From: Escherichia coli
GTDB taxonomy: Bacteria; Pseudomonadota; Gammaproteobacteria; Enterobacterales; Enterobacteriaceae
DNA length: 64,000 nt
Assembly (NCBI RefSeq): GCF_024700885.2
Contig: NZ_CP117016.1
Reading direction: 5' to 3' (one strand)
Shown here: piece by piece, positions 42,390 to 64,000 of the stretch
How positions within the stretch are numbered: the first letter of the stretch is position 1
Layout of the letters: every line of letters begins with the position of its first letter
Position numbers and translations under genes: made by a program
Notes under the pieces: model-generated
Told to the model about the DNA's origin: nothing
Databases searched by the model: none
What the model saw: the letters and a program-made list of their open reading frames with translations, nothing else

Positions 42390-43253
42390 GATGGCAGCCT
42401 CCGCGATGAATTTGATTAACTCACCACCGAGGTTTTCCACGACCATAAGGGTGGTGAGACGTACAGGGGTGGAAATACCGGTCATCACGGAACCCGGCCA
42501 GCCTTGCGGCTGCCCTGCACGCCCCACCATAATGCGAATGTGGCTGTGCTTAACGCATAAAAAAACCGCCTGAGCGCGGTTATGCGCCGTGAATGATTTC
42601 GGGTTTCCACGCCCGGCACCCGTTTTATGAGGTGCAGGTGCACTATAATTCCACCCGTTCTGGTTTTCAATAGCTACATTCAACATTTTCTCTACCTTTC
42701 ATCACCGAAGTGAACTTTGTTGATGCGGTGCCTGGTGCCTCCAGGTGATGTTAACCAGTTAACAATTAACGCCGGATACAGAGAATCCACCCATAACACT
42801 GTTTTTGGTTTTAACTGTTCCGCGTGCGCTGAGCCGCATTCACCGCATCACAAAATTCACTTTAAAAAGGGCGGCAGAGCAGTCACGGAGTAAAACTGAT
42901 ACCGCCAAAAGTCACCAGAAAATTGATAACAGAGGGCGTTGCAGCGGAGTTGTCACTTAAGCGTATGGTCAACCTGACAACCCGGTGTCCTCAACGGGGG
43001 AAGGAATAACCCCGCCATACTTACCGCCGCGCCATTTCGCGGAGTGCCACAACCGGAAGCGCACGGTCGAACTAAATTTAACGACACCGTACAGAGAGAC
43101 CAATTTCGCCGTGCGCTTTCGCGTTATGCCCTGACTTTTCAGGGACATATCCTTTCAGTAAACTGTCAGTGCCGGATGTTCACCCGTGTCCGGCGCACGC
43201 ACTCCACCTGACCCGTGGAGAACTCCTTAATTACCAACCCTCAGGAGGGTGAA

Positions 43254-52401: not shown

Positions 52402-52782
52402 ATGACCGAGCGCATAGAATTTGTTTTACCTTACCCGCCGACGGTGAACACTTACTGGCGACGCCGTGGCAGCACATATTTTATCTCGGAGGAGGGAAAG
52501 CGTTATCGCCGGGCTGTGGCGCTTATTGTTCGCCAGCAGCGGCTGAAATTAAGCCTGTCCGGAAGGCTGGCGATAAAGGTGATTGCAGAGCCACCGGATA
52601 AGCGTCGTCGCGACCTGGACAATATCCTGAAAGCACCGCTGGATGCGCTGACGCATGCGGGAGTGTTAATGGACGATGAGCAGTTTGATGAAATCAATAT
52701 CGTTCGTGGTCAGCCAGTATCTGGTGGACGTCTGGGGGTGAAGATTTACCCCATAATGCATGAAGAGCAGGTCAAAAAATGA
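52402..52782 (+). CDS. rusA: Holliday junction resolvase RusA
   Basis: 126-aa ORF with the RusA-like pattern (LPYPPTVNTYWRRRG...RRRDLDN...). Confidence 0.8.
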   Translation: MTERIEFVLPYPPTVNTYWRRRGSTYFISEEGKRYRRAVALIVRQQRLKLSLSGRLAIKVIAEPPDKRRRDLDNILKAPLDALTHAGVLMDDEQFDEINIVRGQPVSGGRLGVKIYPIMHEEQVKK

Positions 52783-53600
52783 AACTGGAAGATTTACCGA
52801 AATACTACTCCCCAAAATCCCCTGGCCTGACCGATGCATCGGCCTCAACGTCAAAAGATGCGCTGAGTATCACTGATGTGATGGCCGCGCAGGGCATGAC
52901 ACAGAATCGGGCTGAGATGGGGTTTTCTGCGTTCCTGGGGAAAATGGGCATCAGTATGAATGACAGGGCGCGGGCAACAGAATTACTGGCAGATTATGCA
53001 CTCAGTCGGTGCGATCGTGTGGCGGCGTTGAGAAAACTTCCGGCAGAAATAAAACCGGTAGTGATGCGCATTATGGCTTCGTACGCTTTTGAGGATTATG
53101 CCCGCAGCGCAGCGAGTAAAAAGCAGTGCCCCTGTTGCCGAGGGGAAAAATTTATTGAAGGCGAAGTTTTTACAAACAAGGTTCAGTATCCGGATGGCAA
53201 GCCGCCAGTATGGGCAAAGTGTACGAAAGGTGTGTATCCGTCTTACTGGGAAGAATGGAAAAAAATTCGGGAGGTGGTGAAAGTTTCTTGTCCTGAATGT
53301 AAAGGGAAGGGGGAGATTTCCACTGCCTGTAAAGACTGCCGTGGGCGTGGTGTTGCCATTCATCGTGAAGAGTCGGTAAAACGTGGTATGCCTGTTATCA
53401 GAGACTGCCAGCGTTGTGGTGGTCGTGGCTGTGAAAGACTACCATCAACGGAGGCATTTAATGCCATACGCAAAGTGACGAGTGCTATCACGCTTGATAC
53501 GTGGAAAAAATCAGTGAAACGCTTTTACGATACGTTGGTGGTTCGGTTTGACATTGAAGAGGCATGGGCGGAGCGGCAGTTAAAGAGGGTAACGCGATAG
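52779..53600 (+). CDS. putative late-gene antiterminator Q (large, multi-CxxC type)
   Basis: 273-aa ORF with several CxxC pairs, immediately upstream of a PR'/tR'-like promoter-terminator pair. Confidence 0.55.
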   Translation: MKLEDLPKYYSPKSPGLTDASASTSKDALSITDVMAAQGMTQNRAEMGFSAFLGKMGISMNDRARATELLADYALSRCDRVAALRKLPAEIKPVVMRIMASYAFEDYARSAASKKQCPCCRGEKFIEGEVFTNKVQYPDGKPPVWAKCTKGVYPSYWEEWKKIREVVKVSCPECKGKGEISTACKDCRGRGVAIHREESVKRGMPVIRDCQRCGGRGCERLPSTEAFNAIRKVTSAITLDTWKKSVKRFYDTLVVRFDIEEAWAERQLKRVTR

Positions 53601-53605
53601 TGTTG

Positions 53606-53634
53606 TTGATTTTTCCCGAATCTGTGGTAAATTT
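53606..53634 (+). promoter_or_regulatory. putative late promoter PR'
   Basis: TTGATT (53606-53611), 16-bp spacer, TAAATT; located between Q and the tR'-like terminator. Confidence 0.45.
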
Positions 53635-53681: not shown

Positions 53682-53705
53682 CCCCGCCGCCTGGCGGGTT
53701 TTTTA
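53682..53705 (+). terminator. tR'-like terminator downstream of PR'
   Basis: Stem ccccgcc/ggcggg followed by TTTTTTAT. Confidence 0.7.
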
Positions 53706-53826: not shown

Positions 53827-54024
53827 ATGCTAAAACAGCAGGATATGACAGAAACCGCCAGAGTGGTGTTTAATGAATTAAGCGTTACCGAACCGGCGAC
53901 AGTCGGGGAGATAGCGCAGAATACTTACCTTTCACGCGAACGCTGCCAGTTAATACTGACCCAGCTGGTTATGGCGGGTCTGGCAGACTATCAGTTCGGT
54001 TGTTACAGACGCCTTCAGTCCTGA
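53827..54024 (+). CDS. small winged-helix protein (possibly FaeA/PapI-like)
   Basis: ORF 53740..54024; Met at 53827 gives 65 aa with an HTH-like segment (ATVGEIAQNTYLSRERCQLILTQL). Confidence 0.4.
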   Translation: MLKQQDMTETARVVFNELSVTEPATVGEIAQNTYLSRERCQLILTQLVMAGLADYQFGCYRRLQS

Positions 54025-54035
54025 AGGCTTTTTTA
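54011..54035 (+). terminator. rho-independent terminator
   Basis: Stem gccttca/tgaaggc with gtcc loop followed by TTTTTT. Confidence 0.65.
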
Positions 54036-54174
54036 TTTGTGGTAAATGGGCGGCTGGTGGGTGTTAGGGGCACCCACCAGCCATCTGCTCATGCGTTGGG
54101 TTCACAAGCAAACCTCAGGCCCACTGCTTTGCGCAAAAGCAGAATGAGCCTATCAGAGACAGGCTTAATGATCC

Positions 54175-55224
54175 ATGCTTAATACTGTAAAAATATCCAG
54201 TTGTGAGTTAATCAACGCCGACTGCCTGGAATTTATCCGGTCGTTACCCGAAAATTCTGTTGACCTGATAGTCACGGACCCGCCGTACTTTAAAGTGAAG
54301 CCTGAGGGCTGGGATAACCAGTGGAAGGGCGACGATGATTACCTGAAGTGGCTGGACCAGTGTCTGGCGCAGTTCTGGCGGGTGCTGAAACCTGCCGGAA
54401 GTCTTTACCTGTTCTGTGGTCATCGCCTGGCATCTGATATCGAAATCATGATGCGTGAACGCTTCAGTGTGCTGAACCATATTATCTGGGCGAAGCCGTC
54501 CGGACGCTGGAACGGATGCAACAAGGAAAGCCTGCGGGCGTATTTCCCCGCCACAGAGCGCATTCTGTTCGCGGAACATTATCAGGGGCCGTATCGTCCG
54601 AAAGATGCCGGGTATGCGGCGAAGGGCAGTGCACTGAAACAGCATGTGATGGCCCCGCTGATTTCTTACTTTCGTGATGCGCGCGCGGCCCTGGGGATAA
54701 CGGCAAAACAGATTGCAGATGCCACAGGAAAGAAAAACATGGTGTCGCACTGGTTCAGTGCCAGTCAGTGGCAGCTACCGAATGAAAGCGATTATCTGAA
54801 ATTACAGGCGCTGTTTGCCCGGGTGGCAGAAGAGAAGCATCGGCGTGGTGAACTGGAAAAGCTCCACCACCAGCTGGTGGATACGTATACCTCACTGAAC
54901 CGGCAGTATGCGGAGCTGCTGAGTGAATATAAACATCTGCGGCGGTATTTTGGCGTGACGGTGCAGGTGCCGTATACCGATGTGTGGACGCATAAACCGG
55001 TGCAGTTCTATCCCGGGAAACATCTGTGCGAAAAACCGGCAGAAATGCTGCAGCAGATAATCAGCGCAAGCAGTCGTCCGGGTGACCTGGTTGCAGATTT
55101 TTTCATGGGGTCGGGTTCAACGGTAAAAGCGGCGATGGCACTGGGGCGTCGTGCGATTGGCGTTGAACTGGAGACCGGACGTTTTGAGCAGACAGTCAGG
55201 GAAGTTCAGGATTTAATCGTTTGA
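54175..55224 (+). CDS. orphan DNA N6-adenine/N4-cytosine methyltransferase (DPPY motif)
   Basis: 349-aa ORF with catalytic IVTDPPYF near the N-terminus and AdoMet-binding FFMGSGST near the C-terminus; no adjacent restriction endonuclease ORF. Confidence 0.8.
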   Translation: MLNTVKISSCELINADCLEFIRSLPENSVDLIVTDPPYFKVKPEGWDNQWKGDDDYLKWLDQCLAQFWRVLKPAGSLYLFCGHRLASDIEIMMRERFSVLNHIIWAKPSGRWNGCNKESLRAYFPATERILFAEHYQGPYRPKDAGYAAKGSALKQHVMAPLISYFRDARAALGITAKQIADATGKKNMVSHWFSASQWQLPNESDYLKLQALFARVAEEKHRRGELEKLHHQLVDTYTSLNRQYAELLSEYKHLRRYFGVTVQVPYTDVWTHKPVQFYPGKHLCEKPAEMLQQIISASSRPGDLVADFFMGSGSTVKAAMALGRRAIGVELETGRFEQTVREVQDLIV

Positions 55225-55273: not shown

Positions 55274-55349
55274 GGCCCTTTAGCTCAGTGGTGAGAGCGA
55301 GCGACTCATAATCGCCAGGTCGCTGGTTCAAATCCAGCAAGGGCCACCA
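55274..55349 (+). tRNA. tRNA-Ile (anticodon CAU, ileZ-like) or tRNA-Met
   Basis: 76 nt; perfect 7-bp acceptor stem (GGCCCTT/AAGGGCC), D and T arms, anticodon loop CTCATAA, 3' CCA. Confidence 0.85.
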
Positions 55350-55449: not shown

Positions 55450-55526
55450 GCGTTGTTAGCTCAGCCGGACAGAGCAATTGCCTTCTAAGCAATCGGTCAC
55501 TGGTTCGAATCCAGTACAGCGCGCCA
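55450..55526 (+). tRNA. tRNA-Arg (anticodon UCU, argN/argO-like)
   Basis: 77 nt; acceptor stem GCGTTGT/ACAGCGC, anticodon loop CTTCTAA, T loop TTCGAAT, 3' CCA. Confidence 0.85.
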
Positions 55527-55633
55527 TATTCATTCTTCCAGATTCCTTTCGGCAGAGCCTTATACTGAAATATACCTGGCTCAGGATATTGTTGAAAATA
55601 TTATATGTTTGTCAAAAATAAAAGTTCTGTTAA

Positions 55634-55990
55634 GTGTTGATTGAGTGTTTGTTATACGGTCTAATGGTTTTTTCAGCATTAAATATTTATCATTCATATG
55701 GTGTGGGTAGAGTGAATATTGATGAGGCGTCGGGGTGTTTCATCCTTAGGCAGCGTATTGATATAGTCAATGCAGAACGAGCAAAGGCCTTCAGCCGTTT
55801 GACAGTTTTGTTCTGTACTCCTGATCGTCTTTCGGGAAGAGACGTTATTATTCTGAATAGTGATGCTATACAGAGGGTTTGCGATGAGTTCATGGTGGCT
55901 AATTCAGAATTATTTGCTCTTGTTCAGGAGTACAACAGAATAGCCAGGACCTGTGGTATGGATGAACTTCGGATTACTCATCTGGGGTAG
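55634..55990 (+). CDS. hypothetical cargo protein in the AT-rich slot downstream of the phage tRNAs
   Basis: 118-aa ORF (GTG start; internal ATG alternatives); no recognisable motif. Confidence 0.4.
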   Translation: MLIECLLYGLMVFSALNIYHSYGVGRVNIDEASGCFILRQRIDIVNAERAKAFSRLTVLFCTPDRLSGRDVIILNSDAIQRVCDEFMVANSELFALVQEYNRIARTCGMDELRITHLG

Positions 55991-56437
55991 ATACATATCT
56001 GGATTATCACCGGTTACGGTAAAAAGTGATTGCTTACTGTTTTTGTGAATGGCATTGCAGCAGCCGGATAATGTCAGTGCTGGCTGACGGTGTGCTGGTG
56101 GCGGGTGTGGTGGTTGCTGCTTTCCCGTTGCTGAAAAAGAAAACGCCAGACTGTTAGCCGGGTATCAGTTAGCGGGAGAAATTTTTAAATACTTCACAAT
56201 TCAGGCGGTTGACTGTTGTCTGGTTTGCGGGGAGTTTGTTAAAAGAAACTGGCATGGTGAATCCCCCTGTGCGGAGGGGCAATCAGCGAGTAGGTATATG
56301 GGATAATCGCGGATTCAGGTGCTGGTACTGAATTCACCGGGAGGCACCCGGCACCATGCAATGGCACATAGCGCCACTCTCCAGCCCCTCTCCGGAGGGG
56401 CTGTTTATATTGATTTTGTCAGATGTGAGTAAACTCC

Positions 56438-59256: not shown

Positions 59257-59302
59257 TTCAATGACTCAAAACTATGAACTGATTGTGGGTAATGACTCCA
59301 AC

Positions 59303-59806
59303 TTATTGATAGTGTTTTATGTTCAGATAATGCCCGATGACTTTGTCATGCAGCTCCACCGATTTTGAGAACGACAGCGACTTCCGTCCCAGCCGTGCCA
59401 GGTGCTGCCTCAGATTCAGGTTATGCCGCTCAATTCGCTGCGTATATCGCTTGCTGATTACGTGCAGCTTTCCCTTCAGGCGGGATTCATACAGCGGCCA
59501 GCCATCCGTCATCCATATCACCACGTCAAAGGGTGACAGCAGGCTCATAAGACGCCCCAGCGTCGCCATAGTGCGTTCACCGAATACGTGCGCAACAACC
59601 GTCTTCCGGAGCCTGTCATACGCGTAAAACAGCCAGCGCTGGCGCGATTTAGCCCCGACGTATCCCCACTGTTCGTCCATTTCCGCGCAGACGATGACGT
59701 CACTGCCCGGCTGTATGCGCGAGGTTACCGACTGCGGCCTGAGTTTTTTAAATGGCGGAAAATCGTGTTGAGGCCAACGCCCATAATGCGGGCGGTTGCC
59801 CGGCAT
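59303..59806 (-). CDS. insB: IS1 transposase InsB
   Basis: 167-aa [53 protein letters not shown]... Confidence 0.95.
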
Positions 59807-60000
59807 CCAACGCCATTCATGGCCATATCAATGATTTTCTGGTGCGTACCGGGTTGAGAAGCGGTGTAAGTGAACTGCAGTTGCCATGTTTTACGGCAGT
59901 GAGAGCAGAGATAGCGCTGATGTCCGGCGGTGCTTTTGCCGTTACGCACCACCCCGTCAGTAGCTGAACAGGAGGGACAGCTGATAGAAACAGAAGCCAC
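59725..60000 (-). CDS. insA: IS1 protein InsA
   Basis: 91-aa [46 protein letters not shown]... Confidence 0.95.
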
Positions 60001-60451
60001 TGGAGCACCTCAAAAACACCATCATACACTAAATCAGTAAGTTGGCAGCATCACCCTGATTGTGAAAGGGATCCGCAATTTTGAGAATAAAGTTACGGTA
60101 ACTTTAGCGTTACGGGACAAAAAACGCTTTGACGGTGAAATTTTTGACCTGGACATCTCGCTGGACCGTGTTGAAGGTGCCACGCTGGAGTTTTATGAGG
60201 CAGCAGCCAGAAGGAGCATCAGACAGGTCTTCCTGGATGTTGCTGCCGGGTTATGTGAAGGGGATGAGCAGTCGCCGGAAAAGCGCCCCGTAATTTTAGA
60301 GGCGCAGAATGTATGGATAACCTACAAAGGAAAGCTACCGGGAATAATTACTGGTTCTCTGAAGACTCCTCCGGAATCACAACCTTAAGTCACTGACCGG
60401 AACAGATAAACCTGTCCGTGGGCAGAAACCGATAAATCCTGATAAATATCC

Positions 60452-60985
60452 ATGAACACCAAAATCAAATACGGCCTGTCGGCTGCCGTTCTGGCGCTGA
60501 TTGCCGCTGGTGCGCCTGCGCCTGACATTCTCGACCAGTTTCTGGATGAAAAGGAAGGTAACCACACCACGGCATACCGTGATGGCGCGGGTATCTGGAC
60601 CATCTGCCGCGGTGCCATCCTGGTGGATGGCAAACCTGTCGTTCCTGGCATGAAGTTGTCGAAGGAAAAATGCGACCGGGTTAACGCCATTGAGCGTGAT
60701 AAGGCGCTGGCATGGGTGGAGAAAAACATCAGAGTGCCATTGAGTGAACCCCAGAAAGCGGGGATCGCGTCATTCTGTCCGTACAACATTGGCCCCGGTA
60801 AGTGTTTTCCGTCGACGTTTTATAAACGAATTAATGCAGGTGATCGCAGGGGAGCGTGTGAGGCGATTCGCTGGTGGATTAAGGACGGTGGCAGGGACTG
60901 CCGTATTCGCTCAAATAACTGTTACGGTCAGGTATCCCGTCGTGACCAGGAGAGCGCGCTGGCGTGCTGGGGAATCGACAGATAA
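60452..60985 (+). CDS. SAR (signal-anchor-release) endolysin, phage-21 R-type lysozyme
   Basis: 177-aa ORF with N-terminal hydrophobic SAR segment (GLSAAVLALIAAGAPAP) and lysozyme catalytic region (E...D...T). Confidence 0.85.
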   Translation: MNTKIKYGLSAAVLALIAAGAPAPDILDQFLDEKEGNHTTAYRDGAGIWTICRGAILVDGKPVVPGMKLSKEKCDRVNAIERDKALAWVEKNIRVPLSEPQKAGIASFCPYNIGPGKCFPSTFYKRINAGDRRGACEAIRWWIKDGGRDCRIRSNNCYGQVSRRDQESALACWGIDR

Positions 60986-61076
60986 GCAGAATATTTTGCT
61001 AATAAATGACGTTGGCCAAGGCGGATGGATAACACGAAATCCTGCGAACTGGCAAAATGTAAGTGAATAAAAGTAA

Positions 61077-61115
61077 AAACCCCGTTTGTTGGCAGCAAGC
61101 GGGGTTTTGTTTTTA
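61077..61115 (+). terminator. terminator-like hairpin downstream of the endolysin
   Basis: Stem aaccccg/cggggtt with 15-nt loop followed by TTGTTTTT. Confidence 0.5.
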
Positions 61116-61179
61116 TGGCAGTAAGCTATGGGAGGCTGCCTTGATTGATTTTAGCAAACTGATTAGGGAGTTGCGACTC

Positions 61180-61275
61180 ATGATTAGTCAATTACCAAAC
61201 TGGAAATTTTTGCTGGTCTGGAGCATCCCTTTTTTATGGGTAGTATCCCAGTTAATTGTGGCAATTAAGGGGTAG
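61180..61275 (+). CDS. candidate small membrane peptide (31 aa)
   Basis: AGGGAG then ATG; MISQLPNWKFLLVWSIPFLWVVSQLIVAIKG. Confidence 0.3.
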   Translation: MISQLPNWKFLLVWSIPFLWVVSQLIVAIKG

Positions 61276-61277
61276 CT

Positions 61278-61409
61278 ATGTCAGACAAACTCATAACGCC
61301 GGCAAAGGTCCTGTGTGTGATTGTCGGTATTTCATTTTCACTAATGCTGGTTGCTCTTTTTCTGTCCTTCGCCTGGGTGATGTTGTCTTCGTCGGGGCTG
61401 CTGGGGTGA
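61278..61409 (+). CDS. candidate small membrane peptide (43 aa)
   Basis: AAGGGG then ATG; MSDKLITPAKVLCVIVGISFSLMLVALFLSFAWVMLSSSGLLG. Confidence 0.3.
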   Translation: MSDKLITPAKVLCVIVGISFSLMLVALFLSFAWVMLSSSGLLG

Positions 61410-61528
61410 CAGTGACTGATGACATCAGCAGAGCGCTGGCTTTTGCTATTAAGTGGGTGGCTGTTGGTATTGCTGTGTCTCCGATGCTGTATGGGCTGGC
61501 AAAACTGGTCATTGCGCTGAAATCGTGA
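61406..61528 (+). CDS. candidate small membrane peptide (40 aa)
   Basis: GTG start overlapping the previous stop (GTGA); VTVTDDISRALAFAIKWVAVGIAVSPMLYGLAKLVIALKS; similar to the next peptide. Confidence 0.3.
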   Translation: MTVTDDISRALAFAIKWVAVGIAVSPMLYGLAKLVIALKS

Positions 61529-61539
61529 ACTTTAAAAAG

Positions 61540-61626
61540 ATGAGTGCTGAACTTATTCGGGCAATGGCATTTGCCATTCGTATTGTGGCCATTGCTGTTC
61601 TGGTCTGGGCAATCCGTTGGTGGTGA
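61540..61626 (+). CDS. candidate small membrane peptide (28 aa)
   Basis: [28 protein letters not shown]; stop 1 nt before the Rz start. Confidence 0.3.
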
Positions 61627-61627
61627 T

Positions 61628-62122
61628 ATGAACCGTGTTCTGTGTGTGGTGATTATTGTCCTGCTGGTAGCCTGTGGTGTGCTTAGTCTGGGGCTGAATC
61701 ATTACCGCGATAACGCCATCACCTACAAAGCGCAGCGCGATAAAAAAGTCAGTGAGCTGAAACTGGCGAATGCCACTATTACTGACATGCAGCAGCGCCA
61801 GCGAGATGTCGCTGCGCTTGATGCCAGATACACGAAGGAATTAGCCGATGCGAGAGCTGAAAATGAAACTCTGCGCGCTGATGTTGCCGCTGGTCGTAAG
61901 CGCCTGCGGGTCAACGCCACCTGCCCCGGTACCGTGCGTGAAGCCACCGGCACCTCCAGCGTGGATAATGCAACCGGCCCCCGACTGGCAGACACCGCTG
62001 AACGGGATTATTTCATCCTCAGAGAACGGTTGATGACAATGCAGAAGCAGCTGGAAGGGGCGCAGGAATATATCCGCACTCAGTGCACTAAGCTGGCTTT
62101 TTATTATCCGGAGGATACATGA
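61628..62122 (+). CDS. i-spanin Rz
   Basis: ORF 61544..62122; Met at 61628 gives 164 aa with N-terminal TM helix and coiled-coil periplasmic domain; embedded Rz1 frame. Confidence 0.8.
61863..62033 (+). CDS. o-spanin Rz1 (lipoprotein embedded in Rz in the +1 frame)
   Basis: [15 protein letters not shown] lipobox followed by a proline-rich mature peptide, entirely inside Rz. Confidence 0.8.
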
Positions 62123-62343
62123 AGAAATTACGGGTAACCGTAGAACCTTTTCAGGGAACAATTCCGTTCCGTATTTTGCAGCGTGGTCGTGTTCTTGTTG
62201 AAGGTTCGTTCAGTGGTAAATGTACGCAATTACACTCCCGGACCTTTCAGGTGAATGCCACGAATGAAGAGCTAACCGTGGAGTGTACGATGAATGCCGC
62301 TAAATGCCGCATGGTATCCGCTGCATTACAGCCAGTGTGTTGA
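62119..62343 (+). CDS. hypothetical protein translationally coupled to Rz
   Basis: 74-aa ORF, ATG overlaps the Rz stop (ATGA), GGAGGA Shine-Dalgarno. Confidence 0.45.
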
Positions 62344-62541
62344 GCGACCTTATTATCCATGCGCGGTATTGTCGCCGTATTCCTGCATTAACAGAGACCG
62401 CAGCCCGACAGGGAGACTCCTCTGCGCGAGTGTGCGGGGATAATCAAAAACGATACACACCGGGGTTTACCGCGTTAACGGAGCGCGGCGTTGTCCCCTC
62501 ATAGTCGCCTGTCCGGTGCGATGGTGGAAGAAACCGAACGT

Positions 62542-62742
62542 TCATTTCTCGTTATTTGTCATGCTGGCCGGGCGCAGATGCGTTGCATCTGTTGCCAGCC
62601 TTCTCCTGCAGGCTTCAATAACCCACGCTGAAAAGTTACCGGACCCTTTATGCTCAAGGGCGATGTTGATCTGTTCAATTATGTGATTGGGGAAACGGAT
62701 ATTGCGGGTTGTGGTTCTGCGGGTACGGTTTTTCGATGACAT
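62542..62742 (-). CDS. small ribbon-helix-helix-like DNA-binding protein (YlcI-like)
   Basis: ORF 62542..62802; Met at 62742 with AAGGAAA Shine-Dalgarno; MSSKNRTRRTTTRNIRFPNHIIEQINIALEHKGSGNFSAWVIEACRRRL. Confidence 0.5.
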   Translation of the reverse strand: MSSKNRTRRTTTRNIRFPNHIIEQINIALEHKGSGNFSAWVIEACRRRLATDATHLRPASMTNNEK

Positions 62743-62783
62743 ATTTATTTCCTTTACTGATTGCCATATGACGGGGATTTTAC

Positions 62784-63149
62784 ATGGCTGAGCTTCGTAC
62801 ACTCCAGAGCAGAATCAAAACACTGAATACCCGACGGGTGAATATTCTGAAGGGTGAACAGCGTCGTGTCAGTGGCAGTGCACGTGTTTCCCTCAAGCGT
62901 CATATCTGGCTCAGGGACGCCGGGCAGTGCCGTCTCTGTGGTCGTGTGGTTGACCTCTGTGACAGTGAACTCGATCACCGAATTGCACTTCAGTTCGGTG
63001 GTGGTAATGAGGAGACGAATCTCTGGACGCTCTGTACCGAATGCCATCGACAAAAGTCTGCTCGTGAAGCGGCGAGTGGTATGCCGGACCCGACGCTGCC
63101 GGAGGTGTCCGGAGGTAGTGGCAGAGAGGACGACATCATCGGACTGTAA
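62784..63149 (+). CDS. HNH endonuclease (terminase-associated)
   Basis: 121-aa ORF with HNH zinc-binding motif (CRLCGRVV...DHRIALQFGG...NLWTLCTECHRQK) directly upstream of the terminase. Confidence 0.8.
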   Translation: MAELRTLQSRIKTLNTRRVNILKGEQRRVSGSARVSLKRHIWLRDAGQCRLCGRVVDLCDSELDHRIALQFGGGNEETNLWTLCTECHRQKSAREAASGMPDPTLPEVSGGSGREDDIIGL

Positions 63150-63242
63150 CCCAACCCGGGGGGGGGTATCATCCGGCGTAAAAAACGATCGCTTTGGACA
63201 CCGCGCCCCCTCTCACGCAGAGAAAAAATTCCCGTTTCAGGG

Positions 63243-63366
63243 CAGTTAACATGTTAACTGGCTGCCCGGGCATTTTTGCGGTTTTTATCTTTATTATTCA
63301 GTTTGTTGTGCGGAAAAAATGTTAACAGGCTTTTTCAGCAAATGTTAACCAGGCAGCAGTTAACAT
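63243..63366. repeat. GTTAACAT repeat cluster (18-bp perfect palindrome plus three more copies), candidate cos/terminase-binding region
   Basis: cagttaacatgttaactg (63243-63260), atgttaac at 63319-63326 and 63342-63349, inverted gttaacat at 63359-63366, with an A/T-rich spacer. Confidence 0.5.
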
Positions 63367-63440
63367 TTGCGGCATGAGACGCCGGGAAAAATGGGCTGAA
63401 CCATACCCGGCTGAGTGCGTTCTGGACCCGGGAGGAGGCT

Positions 63441-64000
63441 GTGCTGACAACGCAAAAACGAAAATTTGCGCTGGCGCTCATGTCCGGGAAAAACAAAACA
63501 GCGTCAGCCATTGCCGCCGGTTATTCGGCGAAGACCGCCAGGGTTAAAGGCTCGCAGCTGGCAAAAGATCCGGAGGTGCTTGCGTTTATAGCCCGTAAAC
63601 AATGCGAGACGGTGGAGGTGGATGAGGTTCCTGTTTACCGGCAGAAAAAATCAGAGCAGGAGGATAAACCCCGTCGCCGTGAGGCGGCTGCAATACCACA
63701 GCCGGACGAAAACAATCCGGAGATGCCACCGTCCGCGGTGATGTCTCCTGGTATTGAATATATGGAGGATGGTCTTCCCGATCCGGTGAAAGCCATGGGG
63801 CGGATCCTGGTGGAAAACCTCTGCATTGATCCGAAACTGGCACTGGATGCGGCCTGGCGTCTGGCGCAGTTCACGCACCATAAAAAAGGGGATACCGGGA
63901 AAAAATCGGCAAAAGGTGATGCCGCGAAAAAAGCGGCTAACCGTTTTGCGGTGCCACCGCCACCCCGACTGGTGGTGAATAACGATAATGAGGGCAACGG
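63441..64000 (+). CDS. terminase small subunit (5' partial; runs off the window end)
   Basis: GTG at 63441 preceded by GGAGGAGG; the frame is open to position 64000 (VLTTQKRKFALALMSGKNKTASAIAAGYSAKTARVKGSQLAKDPEV...); not in the ORF track because no stop lies within the window. Confidence 0.7.
   Translation, partial: MLTTQKRKFALALMSGKNKTASAIAAGYSAKTARVKGSQLAKDPEVLAFIARKQCETVEVDEVPVYRQKKSEQEDKPRRREAAAIPQPDENNPEMPPSAVMSPGIEYMEDGLPDPVKAMGRILVENLCIDPKLALDAAWRLAQFTHHKKGDTGKKSAKGDAAKKAANRFAVPPPPRLVVNNDNEGN

What the first reader, a model, noticed from the sequence alone, without database searches (positions are those of the whole stretch)
54175..55224. Orphan DNA methyltransferase downstream of Q and PR'
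The catalytic DPPY motif is near the N-terminus and the AdoMet-binding FxGxG near the C-terminus (beta-class order), and no restriction endonuclease is adjacent. Placement behind PR'/tR' implies late or read-through expression, consistent with self-methylation to evade host restriction or with an epigenetic role. The target sequence is unknown; GTTAAC-containing sites are an untested guess prompted by the motif clusters.
Basis: partly seen in the sequence, partly recalled or inferred. Interest (0 to 1): 0.45.

Follow-up and report, generated by a model that had tools for sequence, protein, structure and literature searches.

The report
Known phage non-specific adenine methyltransferase
The gene is a prophage copy of the already characterised M.EcoGI/M.EcoGII enzyme, which methylates every adenine regardless of sequence and is made only late in phage growth, so the finding is real but ordinary.

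Summary
The ORF at 54175-55224 (+, 349 aa) is real. It has DPPY at residues 35-38 and FMGSG at 310-314, the beta-class order. It lies downstream of a Q antiterminator gene and an intrinsic terminator, in a lambdoid prophage integrated at ompW. No restriction gene is annotated in the complete prophage of a genome identical to the shared 29 kb.

It is not an enzyme of unknown specificity. It is 333/349 identical, without gaps, to M.EcoGII of E. coli O104:H4, and 339/349 identical to M.EcoMV of EC958, itself reported 99% identical to M.EcoGI. Both M.EcoGI and M.EcoGII are published as non-specific N6-adenine methyltransferases that are silent in lysogens and toxic when expressed. The GTTAAC guess is therefore unsupported. 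Homologues occur in 1978 of 5426 complete E. coli genomes.

Two things are not ordinary:
- This allele carries a rare P284L change in the family-invariant GKHPCEKP motif.
- The gene is always preceded by a conserved, covarying leader RNA of about 140 nt, and in lambdoid phages also by a 65-aa winged-helix ORF. Together these look like a control module, by analogy with Mu com-mom. Neither part matched a library I searched.

Verdict: already known, low interest; the leader is worth a separate look.

The parts
52779..53600 (+). Q late-gene antiterminator gene (273 aa)
   Evidence: Pfam Antiterm PF03589 twice plus a DnaJ-type CXXCXGXG zinc module. PHROG 127/25523 'anti-termination protein Q-like'. 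Annotated 'antitermination protein' in the identical MLI114 record.
53606..53633 (+). Candidate late promoter PR' (-35 TTGATT 53606-53611; extended -10 TGgTAAATT 53625-53633)
   Evidence: Read from the sequence and inferred only; the consensus scan did not call it. It lies in the Q-type-specific DNA to the left of the shared module.
53683..53704 (+). tR' intrinsic terminator; also the left border of the module shared with prophages that carry other Q types
   Evidence: Terminator scan. Hairpin of -12.6 kcal/mol, z -2.8. Homology to the M.EcoGII prophage (L164) and to phage 1720a-02 (L002) starts exactly at 53683. The SfV record annotates a terminator at the same place.
53827..54024 (+). 65-aa stand-alone winged-helix protein gene (PHROG 331, function unknown)
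   Evidence: PHROG 331 at 1e-37. Weak Pfam TrmB/MarR hits. AlphaFold model with pLDDT 90.6 and H-H-H-beta-beta topology; nearest folds are winged-helix domains. It lies directly upstream of the methylase in 76/76 close loci and in phages of Shigella, Citrobacter, Klebsiella, Salmonella, Hafnia, Providencia and Morganella.
54011..54035 (+). Second intrinsic terminator, overlapping the stop codon of the winged-helix ORF
   Evidence: Terminator scan. Hairpin of -10.5 kcal/mol, z -2.9, followed by TTTTTTATTT.
54039..54180 (+). Conserved structured leader RNA that ends at the methylase start codon (contains Chi GCTGGTGG at 54053-54060)
   Evidence: MFE -63.4 kcal/mol, z -4.3. Covariance-model hit of 144 bits in the window; full-length hits upstream of homologues in phiKO2, PY54, VHML and others. 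93.4% of cells paired and 14/23 pairs with compensatory changes, 0/500 shuffles as high. No Rfam match.
54175..55224 (+). DNA N6-adenine methyltransferase gene of the M.EcoGI/M.EcoGII clade (349 aa): DPPY 54277-54288, FMGSG 55102-55116, rare Leu284 codon CTG 55024-55026
   Evidence: 333/349 identical to M.EcoGII; 339/349 identical to EC958 M.EcoMV; P284 otherwise invariant.
55274..55349 (+). tRNA with CAU anticodon (ileZ-type; PGAP calls it tRNA-Ile, ARAGORN calls it tRNA-Met)
   Evidence: The same gene is annotated ileZ in phiP27.
55450..55526 (+). tRNA-Arg (UCU), argO-type; right end of the shared module (homology ends at 55539)

Best explanation
The ORF encodes a class-beta, S-adenosylmethionine-dependent DNA N6-adenine methyltransferase of the M.EcoGI/M.EcoGII clade. 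These enzymes methylate adenine in any sequence context. The gene has no restriction partner and belongs to the late operon of a lambdoid prophage integrated at ompW.

Proposed mechanism:
- In the lysogen, transcripts from PR' stop at tR' (53683-53704), with a second terminator at 54011-54035, so no enzyme is made. This matters because the enzyme is toxic.
- After induction, Q makes RNA polymerase terminator-resistant. The winged-helix ORF, the leader, the methylase, the tRNAs and the lysis and morphogenesis genes are then transcribed.
- The enzyme methylates many adenines on replicating phage DNA before packaging. The next host's adenine-methylation-sensitive Type I, II and III restriction enzymes then cannot cut it.

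What is shown here: family membership, motif order, gene order, the terminators and the absence of a restriction gene. What is taken from the literature on 95-97% identical proteins: non-specificity, silence in lysogens and toxicity. What is inferred: Q-dependent timing and the anti-restriction benefit.
For: Pfam N6_N4_Mtase at 5e-41, with DPPY before FxGxG. The protein is 333/349 identical, without gaps, to P0136. P0136 is the M.EcoGII sequence of PMC11551740 Table S1, repaired at three machine-reading errors, and it was found exactly in O104:H4 genomes (HUSEC2011 HF572917.2, AFS73976.1, AKE83937.1). It shares a 90% cluster of 4845 members with the window protein. The protein is 339/349 identical to EC958 M.EcoMV, which is reported as 99% identical to M.EcoGI, untranscribed and without a methylation signal (PMC4659465). 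The EC958 Q-to-tRNA region is 98.4% identical in DNA to the window. M.EcoGII is described as 349 aa, beta class, prophage-borne, non-specific, silent in the native strain and harmful when constitutive (PMC5778455). The order Q, terminator, small ORF, methylase, then tRNA/stx and holin recurs in every lambdoid or HK97-like phage record I opened: 1720a-02, UTI89, EC958, mEp460, SfV, phiP27, Hafnia, Providencia, Citrobacter and Morganella. Homology with prophages carrying other Q types starts at the tR' hairpin. No restriction gene is annotated in the whole prophage and the neighbours have no PADLOC hit. The general PR'/tR'/Q logic for such phages is given in the abstract of PMC7547250.
Against: No activity, transcript or methylome data exist for this window. 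This allele has Leu in place of the family-invariant Pro284: P in 121/122 cluster representatives and in 144/144 IMG/VR copies. It may therefore be weakened. Against that, active M1.MboII has Ile at the aligned position. The M.EcoGII reference sequence was reconstructed from a machine-read PDF and matched to O104:H4 accessions, not to EGT69837.1 by name. The anti-restriction benefit has never been shown in vivo for this family. M.EcoGII-modified plasmids transform even non-restricting E. coli 4-5 orders of magnitude worse, so heavy methylation also has a cost. PR' is inferred, not demonstrated.
Confidence: 0.82

Rival explanations
1. It is a sequence-specific orphan methyltransferase with an undetermined site, for example one containing GTTAAC.
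For: The 16 differences from M.EcoGII lie at residues 148-284; all but four (254, 273, 278, 284) fall in the target-recognition helix bundle (residues 160-237) or the linkers on either side of it. GTTAAC is about twice as frequent as expected in the window. The best solved-structure hit (8urk/9c3u) is, from my own recollection, M.BceJIV, which recognises GTWWAC.
Against: M.EcoGI and M.EcoGII differ from each other by the same number of residues (16 of 349) and both are non-specific. The 8urk/9c3u alignment covers only the catalytic core (residues 8-114 and 282-333), not the recognition domain. The GTTAAC clusters lie in places unrelated to the gene.
Confidence: 0.04
2. This particular allele is a weakened or dead copy: the P284L change in the HP(C/T)(E/Q)KP motif next to the AdoMet-binding region impairs the enzyme, and the gene is a decaying passenger of a prophage that is itself damaged by an IS1 insertion in the late operon.
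For: Pro284 is otherwise invariant. It aligns with the P of HPTQKP in CcrM, HpyAVI/DpnA and 8urk, and of HPAPFP in 2zie. The exact window protein is seen on only 7 contigs, against at least 1000 for the Pro284 allele that differs by this one residue. Frameshifted and deleted copies exist in other prophages. IS1 sits at 59288-60055, downstream in the same operon.
Against: The reading frame is intact. DPPY and FxGxG are intact. M1.MboII, an active enzyme, has HITPKP with Ile at this position. The allele occurs in several independent assemblies. IS1 lies downstream of the methylase.
Confidence: 0.2
3. In its native setting the enzyme does not act alone: the co-transmitted 65-aa winged-helix protein redirects or restricts its substrate choice, for example towards RNA or particular DNA. 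This would parallel PNB-2, which redirects the unrelated MT-A70-type methyltransferase of Stx2a phages to 16S rRNA.
For: The gene pair is conserved across genera, down to 62% methylase identity. M.EcoGII also methylates RNA. There is precedent for a small winged-helix partner in a phage methyltransferase (PMC10810198).
Against: M.EcoGII alone is fully active and non-specific on DNA, with an initial rate about 90-fold higher than on RNA (Table S3). Phages Eeyore, LLS and Serratia OS31 have the methylase and the leader but no detectable winged-helix homologue. An intrinsic terminator separates the two genes.
Confidence: 0.1
4. It is an epigenetic regulator acting on the host chromosome in the lysogen.
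For: Orphan methyltransferases such as Dam and CcrM have regulatory roles.
Against: Two terminators separate it from PR'. Close relatives leave no methylation signal in lysogens, and M.EcoMV is predicted inactive from RT-PCR. Constitutive expression slows growth. A non-specific enzyme carries no positional information.
Confidence: 0.03

Closest known systems
M.EcoGII (E. coli O104:H4 C227-11; GenBank EGT69837.1; Murray et al. 2018, PMC5778455)
   Same: 349 aa, collinear, 333/349 identical. Beta-class order. Prophage-borne, between Q and the lysis genes, with the same small ORF and leader upstream.
   Different: 16 substitutions at residues 148-284, including P284L in an otherwise invariant motif. 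The flanking Q is of another family: Pfam Antiterm here, Phage_antitermQ there, with two antisense genes inserted between Q and the module.
M.EcoGI / M.EcoMV (EC958_1545, prophage Phi4 of ST131; PMC4659465)
   Same: 339/349 identical to M.EcoMV. It sits in a closely similar prophage (same gene order and many identical proteins) with the same order Q, small ORF, methylase, tRNA-Ile, tRNA-Arg, IraM, esterase, holin. DNA is 98.4% identical over Q to tRNA.
   Different: Ten substitutions. I compared with M.EcoMV, not with M.EcoGI itself, whose sequence I could not obtain.
Hia5, Hin1523 and Nme1821: non-specific adenine methyltransferases of Mu-like prophages (Drozdz et al. 2012, PMC3299994)
   Same: Phage-borne adenine methyltransferases with little or no sequence specificity. 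They are silent in the lysogen and preceded by a small regulator gene.
   Different: They are class alpha, with the opposite motif order. They sit in the mom position of Mu-like phages behind a Com zinc-finger gene, not in a lambdoid Q-dependent operon.
Mu com-mom operon
   Same: A toxic, late, broad adenine-modifying anti-restriction function, preceded by a small protein gene and a structured mRNA leader at its start. A 55%-identical homologue in Aeromonas phage phiARM81ld is preceded by a true Com-like zinc-ribbon ORF.
   Different: Mom is not a methyltransferase. The small protein here is a winged helix, not a zinc ribbon. No regulatory link has been shown.
M.EcoPA8orf6770P-PNB-2, 16S rRNA methyltransferase of Stx2a phages (PMC10810198)
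   Same: A phage methyltransferase with a small winged-helix partner encoded just upstream.
   Different: It belongs to the MT-A70 family and lies near the left end of the phage genome. The window protein matches only N6_N4_Mtase. It is an unrelated locus.
Solved beta-class enzymes: 8urk/9c3u (M.BceJIV from my recollection), M.RsrI, CcrM, M1.MboII
   Same: Shared catalytic core, E 1e-15 to 2e-24.
   Different: Only the core aligns (residues 8-141 and 282-340). The middle recognition region has no counterpart, and those enzymes are sequence-specific.

Membership tests
Class-beta amino-methyltransferases (Pfam N6_N4_Mtase, PF01555) | Motif IV (D/N/S)PP(Y/F/W) lies N-terminal, motif I FxGxG lies C-terminal, and the recognition region lies between them (definition in PMC7544214) | tested here: met
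   DPPY at 35-38 and FMGSG at 310-314.
Class-beta amino-methyltransferases (Pfam N6_N4_Mtase, PF01555) | Significant match to the family profile over the whole catalytic domain | tested here: met
   E=5.1e-41, residues 29-340, model positions 1-219 of 221. PADLOC MTase_II at 1.7e-164.
M.EcoGI/M.EcoGII clade (non-specific adenine methyltransferases of enterobacterial prophages) | Full-length, gap-free similarity to the characterised enzymes at the level at which they resemble each other (333/349) | tested here: met
   333/349 identical to M.EcoGII and 339/349 to M.EcoMV, which is reported 99% identical to M.EcoGI. Same 90% cluster. Caveat: the M.EcoGII reference was rebuilt from a machine-read table and confirmed by an exact match in O104:H4 genomes.
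M.EcoGI/M.EcoGII clade (non-specific adenine methyltransferases of enterobacterial prophages) | Methylates adenine in any sequence context | not testable with these tools
   Known only for M.EcoGI and M.EcoGII by experiment.
M.EcoGI/M.EcoGII clade (non-specific adenine methyltransferases of enterobacterial prophages) | Prophage-borne and not expressed in the lysogen | tested here: inconclusive
   Prophage location and two upstream terminators are shown. Silence is known only from the literature for C227-11 and EC958.
M.EcoGI/M.EcoGII clade (non-specific adenine methyltransferases of enterobacterial prophages) | Catalytic-core motifs intact (DPPY, FxGxG, GKHPCEKP). This is my own criterion, not a published definition. 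| tested here: inconclusive
   DPPY and FxGxG are intact. Pro284 of GKHPCEKP is replaced by Leu. Ile occurs at this position in active M1.MboII.
Type II restriction-modification system | A cognate restriction endonuclease gene next to the methyltransferase or elsewhere in the same element | tested here: not met
   None in the PGAP annotation of the complete identical prophage. Six neighbouring ORFs have no PADLOC hit. The HNH genes present are the usual DUF968/YdfU-type and terminase-associated ones.
Dam-type (class alpha) phage orphan methyltransferases, e.g. M.EcoVT2Dam | FxGxG lies N-terminal and DPPY C-terminal; Pfam MethyltransfD12 | tested here: not met
   The motif order is the opposite and there is no such Pfam hit.
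MT-A70/PNB-2 rRNA methyltransferase of Stx2a phages | MT-A70 catalytic domain | tested here: not met
   Only N6_N4_Mtase is significant. The paper places that gene near the left end of the phage genome.
Mu com-mom type control | A Com zinc-ribbon translational activator gene immediately upstream of, or overlapping, the modification gene | tested here: not met
   The upstream ORF in the window is a winged helix with no zinc ribbon. A Com-like ORF (PF10122, 2.3e-6) does precede the 55%-identical homologue in Aeromonas phage phiARM81ld. The resemblance is functional analogy only.

The most novel reading that the evidence does not exclude
The methyltransferase is the payload of a conserved control module that, as far as I could find, has not been described. 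The first part is a covarying structured leader RNA of about 140 nt, with no obvious Shine-Dalgarno sequence in the window, that begins just after an intrinsic terminator and ends at the start codon. It is found from E. coli to Yersinia, Vibrio and Aeromonas phages. The second part, in lambdoid phages, is a stand-alone 65-aa winged-helix protein encoded just upstream. Together they would gate translation or timing of a toxic, non-specific enzyme, as a functional analogue of Mu com-mom.
Probability: 0.3. Interest if true: 0.55.

Novelty: already known. Interest (0 to 1): 0.2.

Why it matters
For the gene itself, little is new. M.EcoGII is a commercial reagent, and its prophage homologues are present in about a third of complete E. 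coli genomes. The practical value lies in annotation. PGAP calls this gene only 'DNA-methyltransferase' and NCBI names cluster-mates 'site-specific DNA-methyltransferase'. By homology to M.EcoGI and M.EcoGII it is expected to be non-specific, so no methylation motif should be expected in lysogen methylomes.

If the leader RNA and the winged-helix ORF do control the enzyme, this would explain how lambdoid phages carry such a dangerous gene safely. It would also add a second, unrelated solution to the problem that Mu solves with Com.

Tried and rejected
- **M.EcoGII reference sequence.** Fang et al. 2012 is not held. The supplements of PMC5778455 are not held. The BIND&MODIFY supplements and a full-text peptide search gave nothing. 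The only source was a machine-read table with visible errors. My first three repaired versions were not in the protein collection. A version guided by an IMG/VR relative was found exactly in O104:H4 genomes.
- **M.EcoGI.** I could not retrieve it directly. My first guess at the EC958 locus was wrong and the second found M.EcoMV.
- **Role of the HPxxKP proline.** No held paper contains the HPTQKP or TQKP string, so none discussing this motif was found.
- **The Stx-phage rRNA methyltransferase with its PNB-2 partner.** I considered it as an identity and rejected it: it is of the MT-A70 family and at another locus.
- **GTTAAC as a target.** Rejected.
- **Rfam.** No family matches the leader. The only nearby hit is a sub-threshold match to P26 on the opposite strand.
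- **The TGTGGTAAAT / TGTGAAAAT box at the start of the leader as an internal promoter.** Not supported in the window, because its hexamer ends in G; I did not pursue it further.
- **The exact fold of the leader.** Not settled. RNAalifold on the covariance-model alignment offers a different long-range partner for the 5' AUGGGC than on the first alignment.
Full report
**What is in the sequence.** The ORF at 54175-55224 (+) runs from ATG to TGA and encodes 349 aa. DPPY occupies residues 35-38 (nt 54277-54288) and FMGSG residues 310-314 (nt 55102-55116). That is motif IV before motif I, the class-beta order as defined in PMC7544214. Pfam N6_N4_Mtase matches residues 29-340 at E=5.1e-41. PHROGs, NCBIfam and PADLOC all return DNA methyltransferase families. 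Solved relatives (8urk/9c3u, M.RsrI, CcrM, M1.MboII) align only over the catalytic core, not over the middle of the protein.

**Where the window comes from.** The window is 100% identical to E. coli MLI114 (NZ_CP117013.1) over 34175-59287 and 60056-64000. It differs only by a 768-bp IS1 with a 9-bp target duplication at 59288-60055. The RefSeq annotation of that genome places the gene in a lambdoid prophage inserted at ompW. The prophage is about 52.7 kb in MLI114, and its integrase end is at about 37,200 in the window.

**What the gene is.**
- Murray et al. describe M.EcoGII as a 349-aa beta-class enzyme on a prophage of E. coli O104:H4. It methylates adenine in any context, is silent in its native strain and is harmful when constitutive. 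They describe M.EcoGI as a 333/349-identical sister, and name phage 1720a-02 as carrying a very similar gene (PMC5778455). Phage 1720a-02 is the best phage hit of the window gene, at 95.3% DNA identity.
- I took the M.EcoGII sequence from Table S1 of PMC11551740. It was machine-read and garbled at three places.
- A repaired version occurs exactly in O104:H4 genomes: HUSEC2011 HF572917.2, and accessions AFS73976.1 and AKE83937.1.
- The window protein is 333/349 identical to it, without gaps, and belongs to the same 90% cluster of 4845 members.
- It is also 339/349 identical to M.EcoMV of EC958. The ST131 methylome paper reports M.EcoMV as 99% identical to M.EcoGI, predicted inactive from RT-PCR and without a methylation signal. 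The EC958 prophage has the same gene order, and its Q-to-tRNA stretch is 98.4% identical in DNA to the window.
- The window gene is therefore a member of the M.EcoGI/M.EcoGII clade. Homologues occur in 1978 of 5426 complete E. coli genomes, with up to six copies per genome.

**Expression logic.**
- The upstream gene (52779-53600) is a Q antiterminator.
- Downstream of it I read a plausible extended -10 promoter: TTGATT, 16 nt, TGgTAAATT, at 53606-53633. This is inference; the scanner did not call it.
- It is followed by an intrinsic terminator at 53683-53704.
- Homology between the window and two prophages with different Q families starts exactly at the foot of this hairpin (53683) and runs to 55539, just past the second tRNA. 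The two are the M.EcoGII prophage, whose Q is Pfam Phage_antitermQ, and phage 1720a-02.
- So Q, PR' and the Q-loading site vary as one unit. A second unit travels together: tR', a 65-aa ORF, a second terminator (54011-54035), a leader of about 140 nt, the methylase and the tRNAs.
- The same order, Q, terminator, small ORF, methylase, then tRNA/stx and holin, is seen in 1720a-02, UTI89, EC958, mEp460, SfV, phiP27, Citrobacter phiNP, Hafnia yong2, Providencia PSTRCR_117lys and Morganella IME1369_02.
- With the established PR'/tR'/Q mechanism of such phages (abstract of PMC7547250), this supports strictly late, Q-dependent expression. That fits the published silence and toxicity. The timing is inferred, not measured.

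**Orphan status and target.** No restriction endonuclease is annotated in the complete prophage of the identical genome, and six neighbouring ORFs have no PADLOC hit. The HNH genes present are the usual DUF968/YdfU-type and terminase-associated ones. GTTAAC is indeed enriched in the window, 28 copies against 14.0 +/- 3.3 expected. Its clusters lie in three places:
- five copies at 63245-63364, in the intergenic stretch between the HNH gene and the small terminase gene;
- 42750-42763, in the early-left region;
- 194-207, in a chromosomal gene.

Only one copy (53803) is near the methylase. These clusters look like protein-binding sites of other systems.

**A peculiarity of this allele.**
- The window protein differs from the very common UTI89/ST95 allele, seen on at least 1000 contigs, by a single residue: Pro284 to Leu (CCG to CTG at 55024-55026).
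- Position 284 is Pro in 121 of 122 cluster representatives and in 144 of 144 IMG/VR copies.
- It aligns with the Pro of HPTQKP in CcrM, HpyAVI and 8urk, and of HPAPFP in 2zie.
- The exact window protein is seen on only 7 contigs.
- This could weaken the enzyme. However, active M1.MboII has Ile at this position (HITPKP), so I cannot call it inactive.

**The conserved neighbours (beyond the finding).**
- The 65-aa ORF (53827-54024) belongs to PHROG 331, of unknown function, and gives weak TrmB/MarR signals.
- Its model is a confident stand-alone winged helix, pLDDT 90.6.
- It directly precedes the methylase in 76 of 76 close loci. The methylase follows it in 64 of 71 loci; two more have a frameshifted copy and five have lost or replaced the gene.
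- The pair persists down to 62% methylase identity and 48% small-protein identity.
- The spacer between the two genes (54039-54180) is more conserved than either gene and folds strongly: -63.4 kcal/mol, z -4.3.
- A covariance model built from 14 enterobacterial copies finds full-length matches just upstream of homologues in phiKO2, PY54, VHML, an Enterobacter phage, PhiR46_1 and Aeromonas phiARM81ld. It finds none in an Erwinia prophage.
- On that alignment 93.4% of cells pair, and 14 of 23 pairs show compensatory changes. Shuffles average 5.0 and none of 500 is as high; slid controls pair at 27-40%.
- The alignment was fitted to the model, which favours the structure. However, the first hairpin has entirely different, still complementary, arms in PY54, VHML and PhiR46_1 in the raw sequences.
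- The exact fold is not settled.
- Rfam 15 has no match.
- In phiKO2 the depositors annotate a late promoter and a terminator immediately before the element.
- In Aeromonas phiARM81ld the element is followed by a Com-like zinc-ribbon ORF (Pfam PF10122, 2.3e-6) that overlaps the methylase start. This is the Mu com-mom arrangement.
- There is precedent. Mu mom is toxic, late and translationally activated by Com. The alpha-class non-specific adenine methyltransferases of Mu-like prophages sit behind com genes (PMC3299994). A different Stx-phage methyltransferase needs a small winged-helix partner (PMC10810198).
- I therefore put forward, as the most novel reading not excluded, that the leader, with the winged-helix protein in lambdoid phages, gates expression of this dangerous enzyme. 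Nothing here shows a regulatory interaction.

**Verdict.** The gene is an already characterised kind of enzyme at 95-97% identity to the type members, so its novelty is nil and its interest low. The rare P284L allele and, more so, the conserved leader RNA and winged-helix ORF are the only points that merit further work.

Noticed in passing
window 54039-54180 (+): A conserved structured RNA of about 140 nt lies between the small-ORF terminator and the methylase start codon. It is more conserved than the flanking genes and shows covariation: 14/23 pairs with compensatory changes on a 20-sequence alignment. It is found upstream of homologues as far as Yersinia PY54, Vibrio VHML and Aeromonas phiARM81ld. 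It has no Rfam match and its fold is not settled.
   Followed up: partly
window 53827-54024 (+): A 65-aa stand-alone winged-helix ORF (PHROG 331; annotated 'TrmB family transcriptional regulator' in the RefSeq phiP27 record) is always directly upstream of this methylase family in lambdoid and HK97-like phages of several genera. Its function is unknown.
   Followed up: partly
window 55024-55026: The Leu284 codon (CTG) replaces the family-invariant Pro (CCG) of GKHPCEKP. It is the only difference from the common UTI89/ST95 allele. The exact protein is seen on only 7 contigs.
   Followed up: yes
window 59288-60055: A 768-bp IS1 (NCBIfam IS1 transposase; insA/insB on the minus strand) with a 9-bp target duplication is inserted 27 nt into the ydfR-family gene just after the holin. 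It is absent from the otherwise identical MLI114 prophage and may be polar on the lysis and morphogenesis genes.
   Followed up: partly
window 63245-63364; 42750-42763; 194-207: Clusters of GTTAAC or TGTTAAC. Five copies, including an inverted pair GGGCAGTTAACATGTTAACTGGCTGCCC, lie in the intergenic stretch between the HNH gene and the small terminase gene (a guess: cos or terminase-binding sites). Pairs lie in the early-left region and in a chromosomal gene. Window total is 28 against 14 expected.
   Followed up: partly
window 56223-56412 (+): Strong Rfam match to the sRNA STnc100 (RF02076; 132 bits against a gathering score of 47), between the tRNAs and the antisense iraM-like gene. The same stretch is conserved in the O104:H4 and UTI89 prophages.
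   Followed up: no
window 54053-54060 and 54075-54082: The first hairpin of the leader carries the Chi octamer GCTGGTGG on the top strand and, in this window, its complement in the other arm. In three IMG/VR prophages the deletion that removed the methylase and the tRNAs starts right after this octamer (L090, L153, L161).
   Followed up: partly
L185 (Aeromonas phage phiARM81ld) 1829-2044: A Com-like zinc-ribbon ORF (Pfam PF10122, E 2.3e-6) overlaps the start of a 55%-identical methylase homologue and is itself preceded by the leader element (29 bits). This is a Mu com-mom-like arrangement around a beta-class methyltransferase.
   Followed up: partly
L004 12923-13591 (MLI114 prophage, tail-fibre region, outside the window): A second methyltransferase gene, annotated 'class I SAM-dependent methyltransferase' (WP_000240999.1), sits among tail-fibre assembly remnants of the same prophage and also in EC958 Phi4.
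   Followed up: no
window 55540-56181: A stretch of about 640 bp, including ORF 55634-55990 (PHROG 2873, unknown function), is present here and in EC958 but absent from the O104:H4 and UTI89 versions of the module. UTI89 instead has a third tRNA (a second tRNA-Arg).
   Followed up: no
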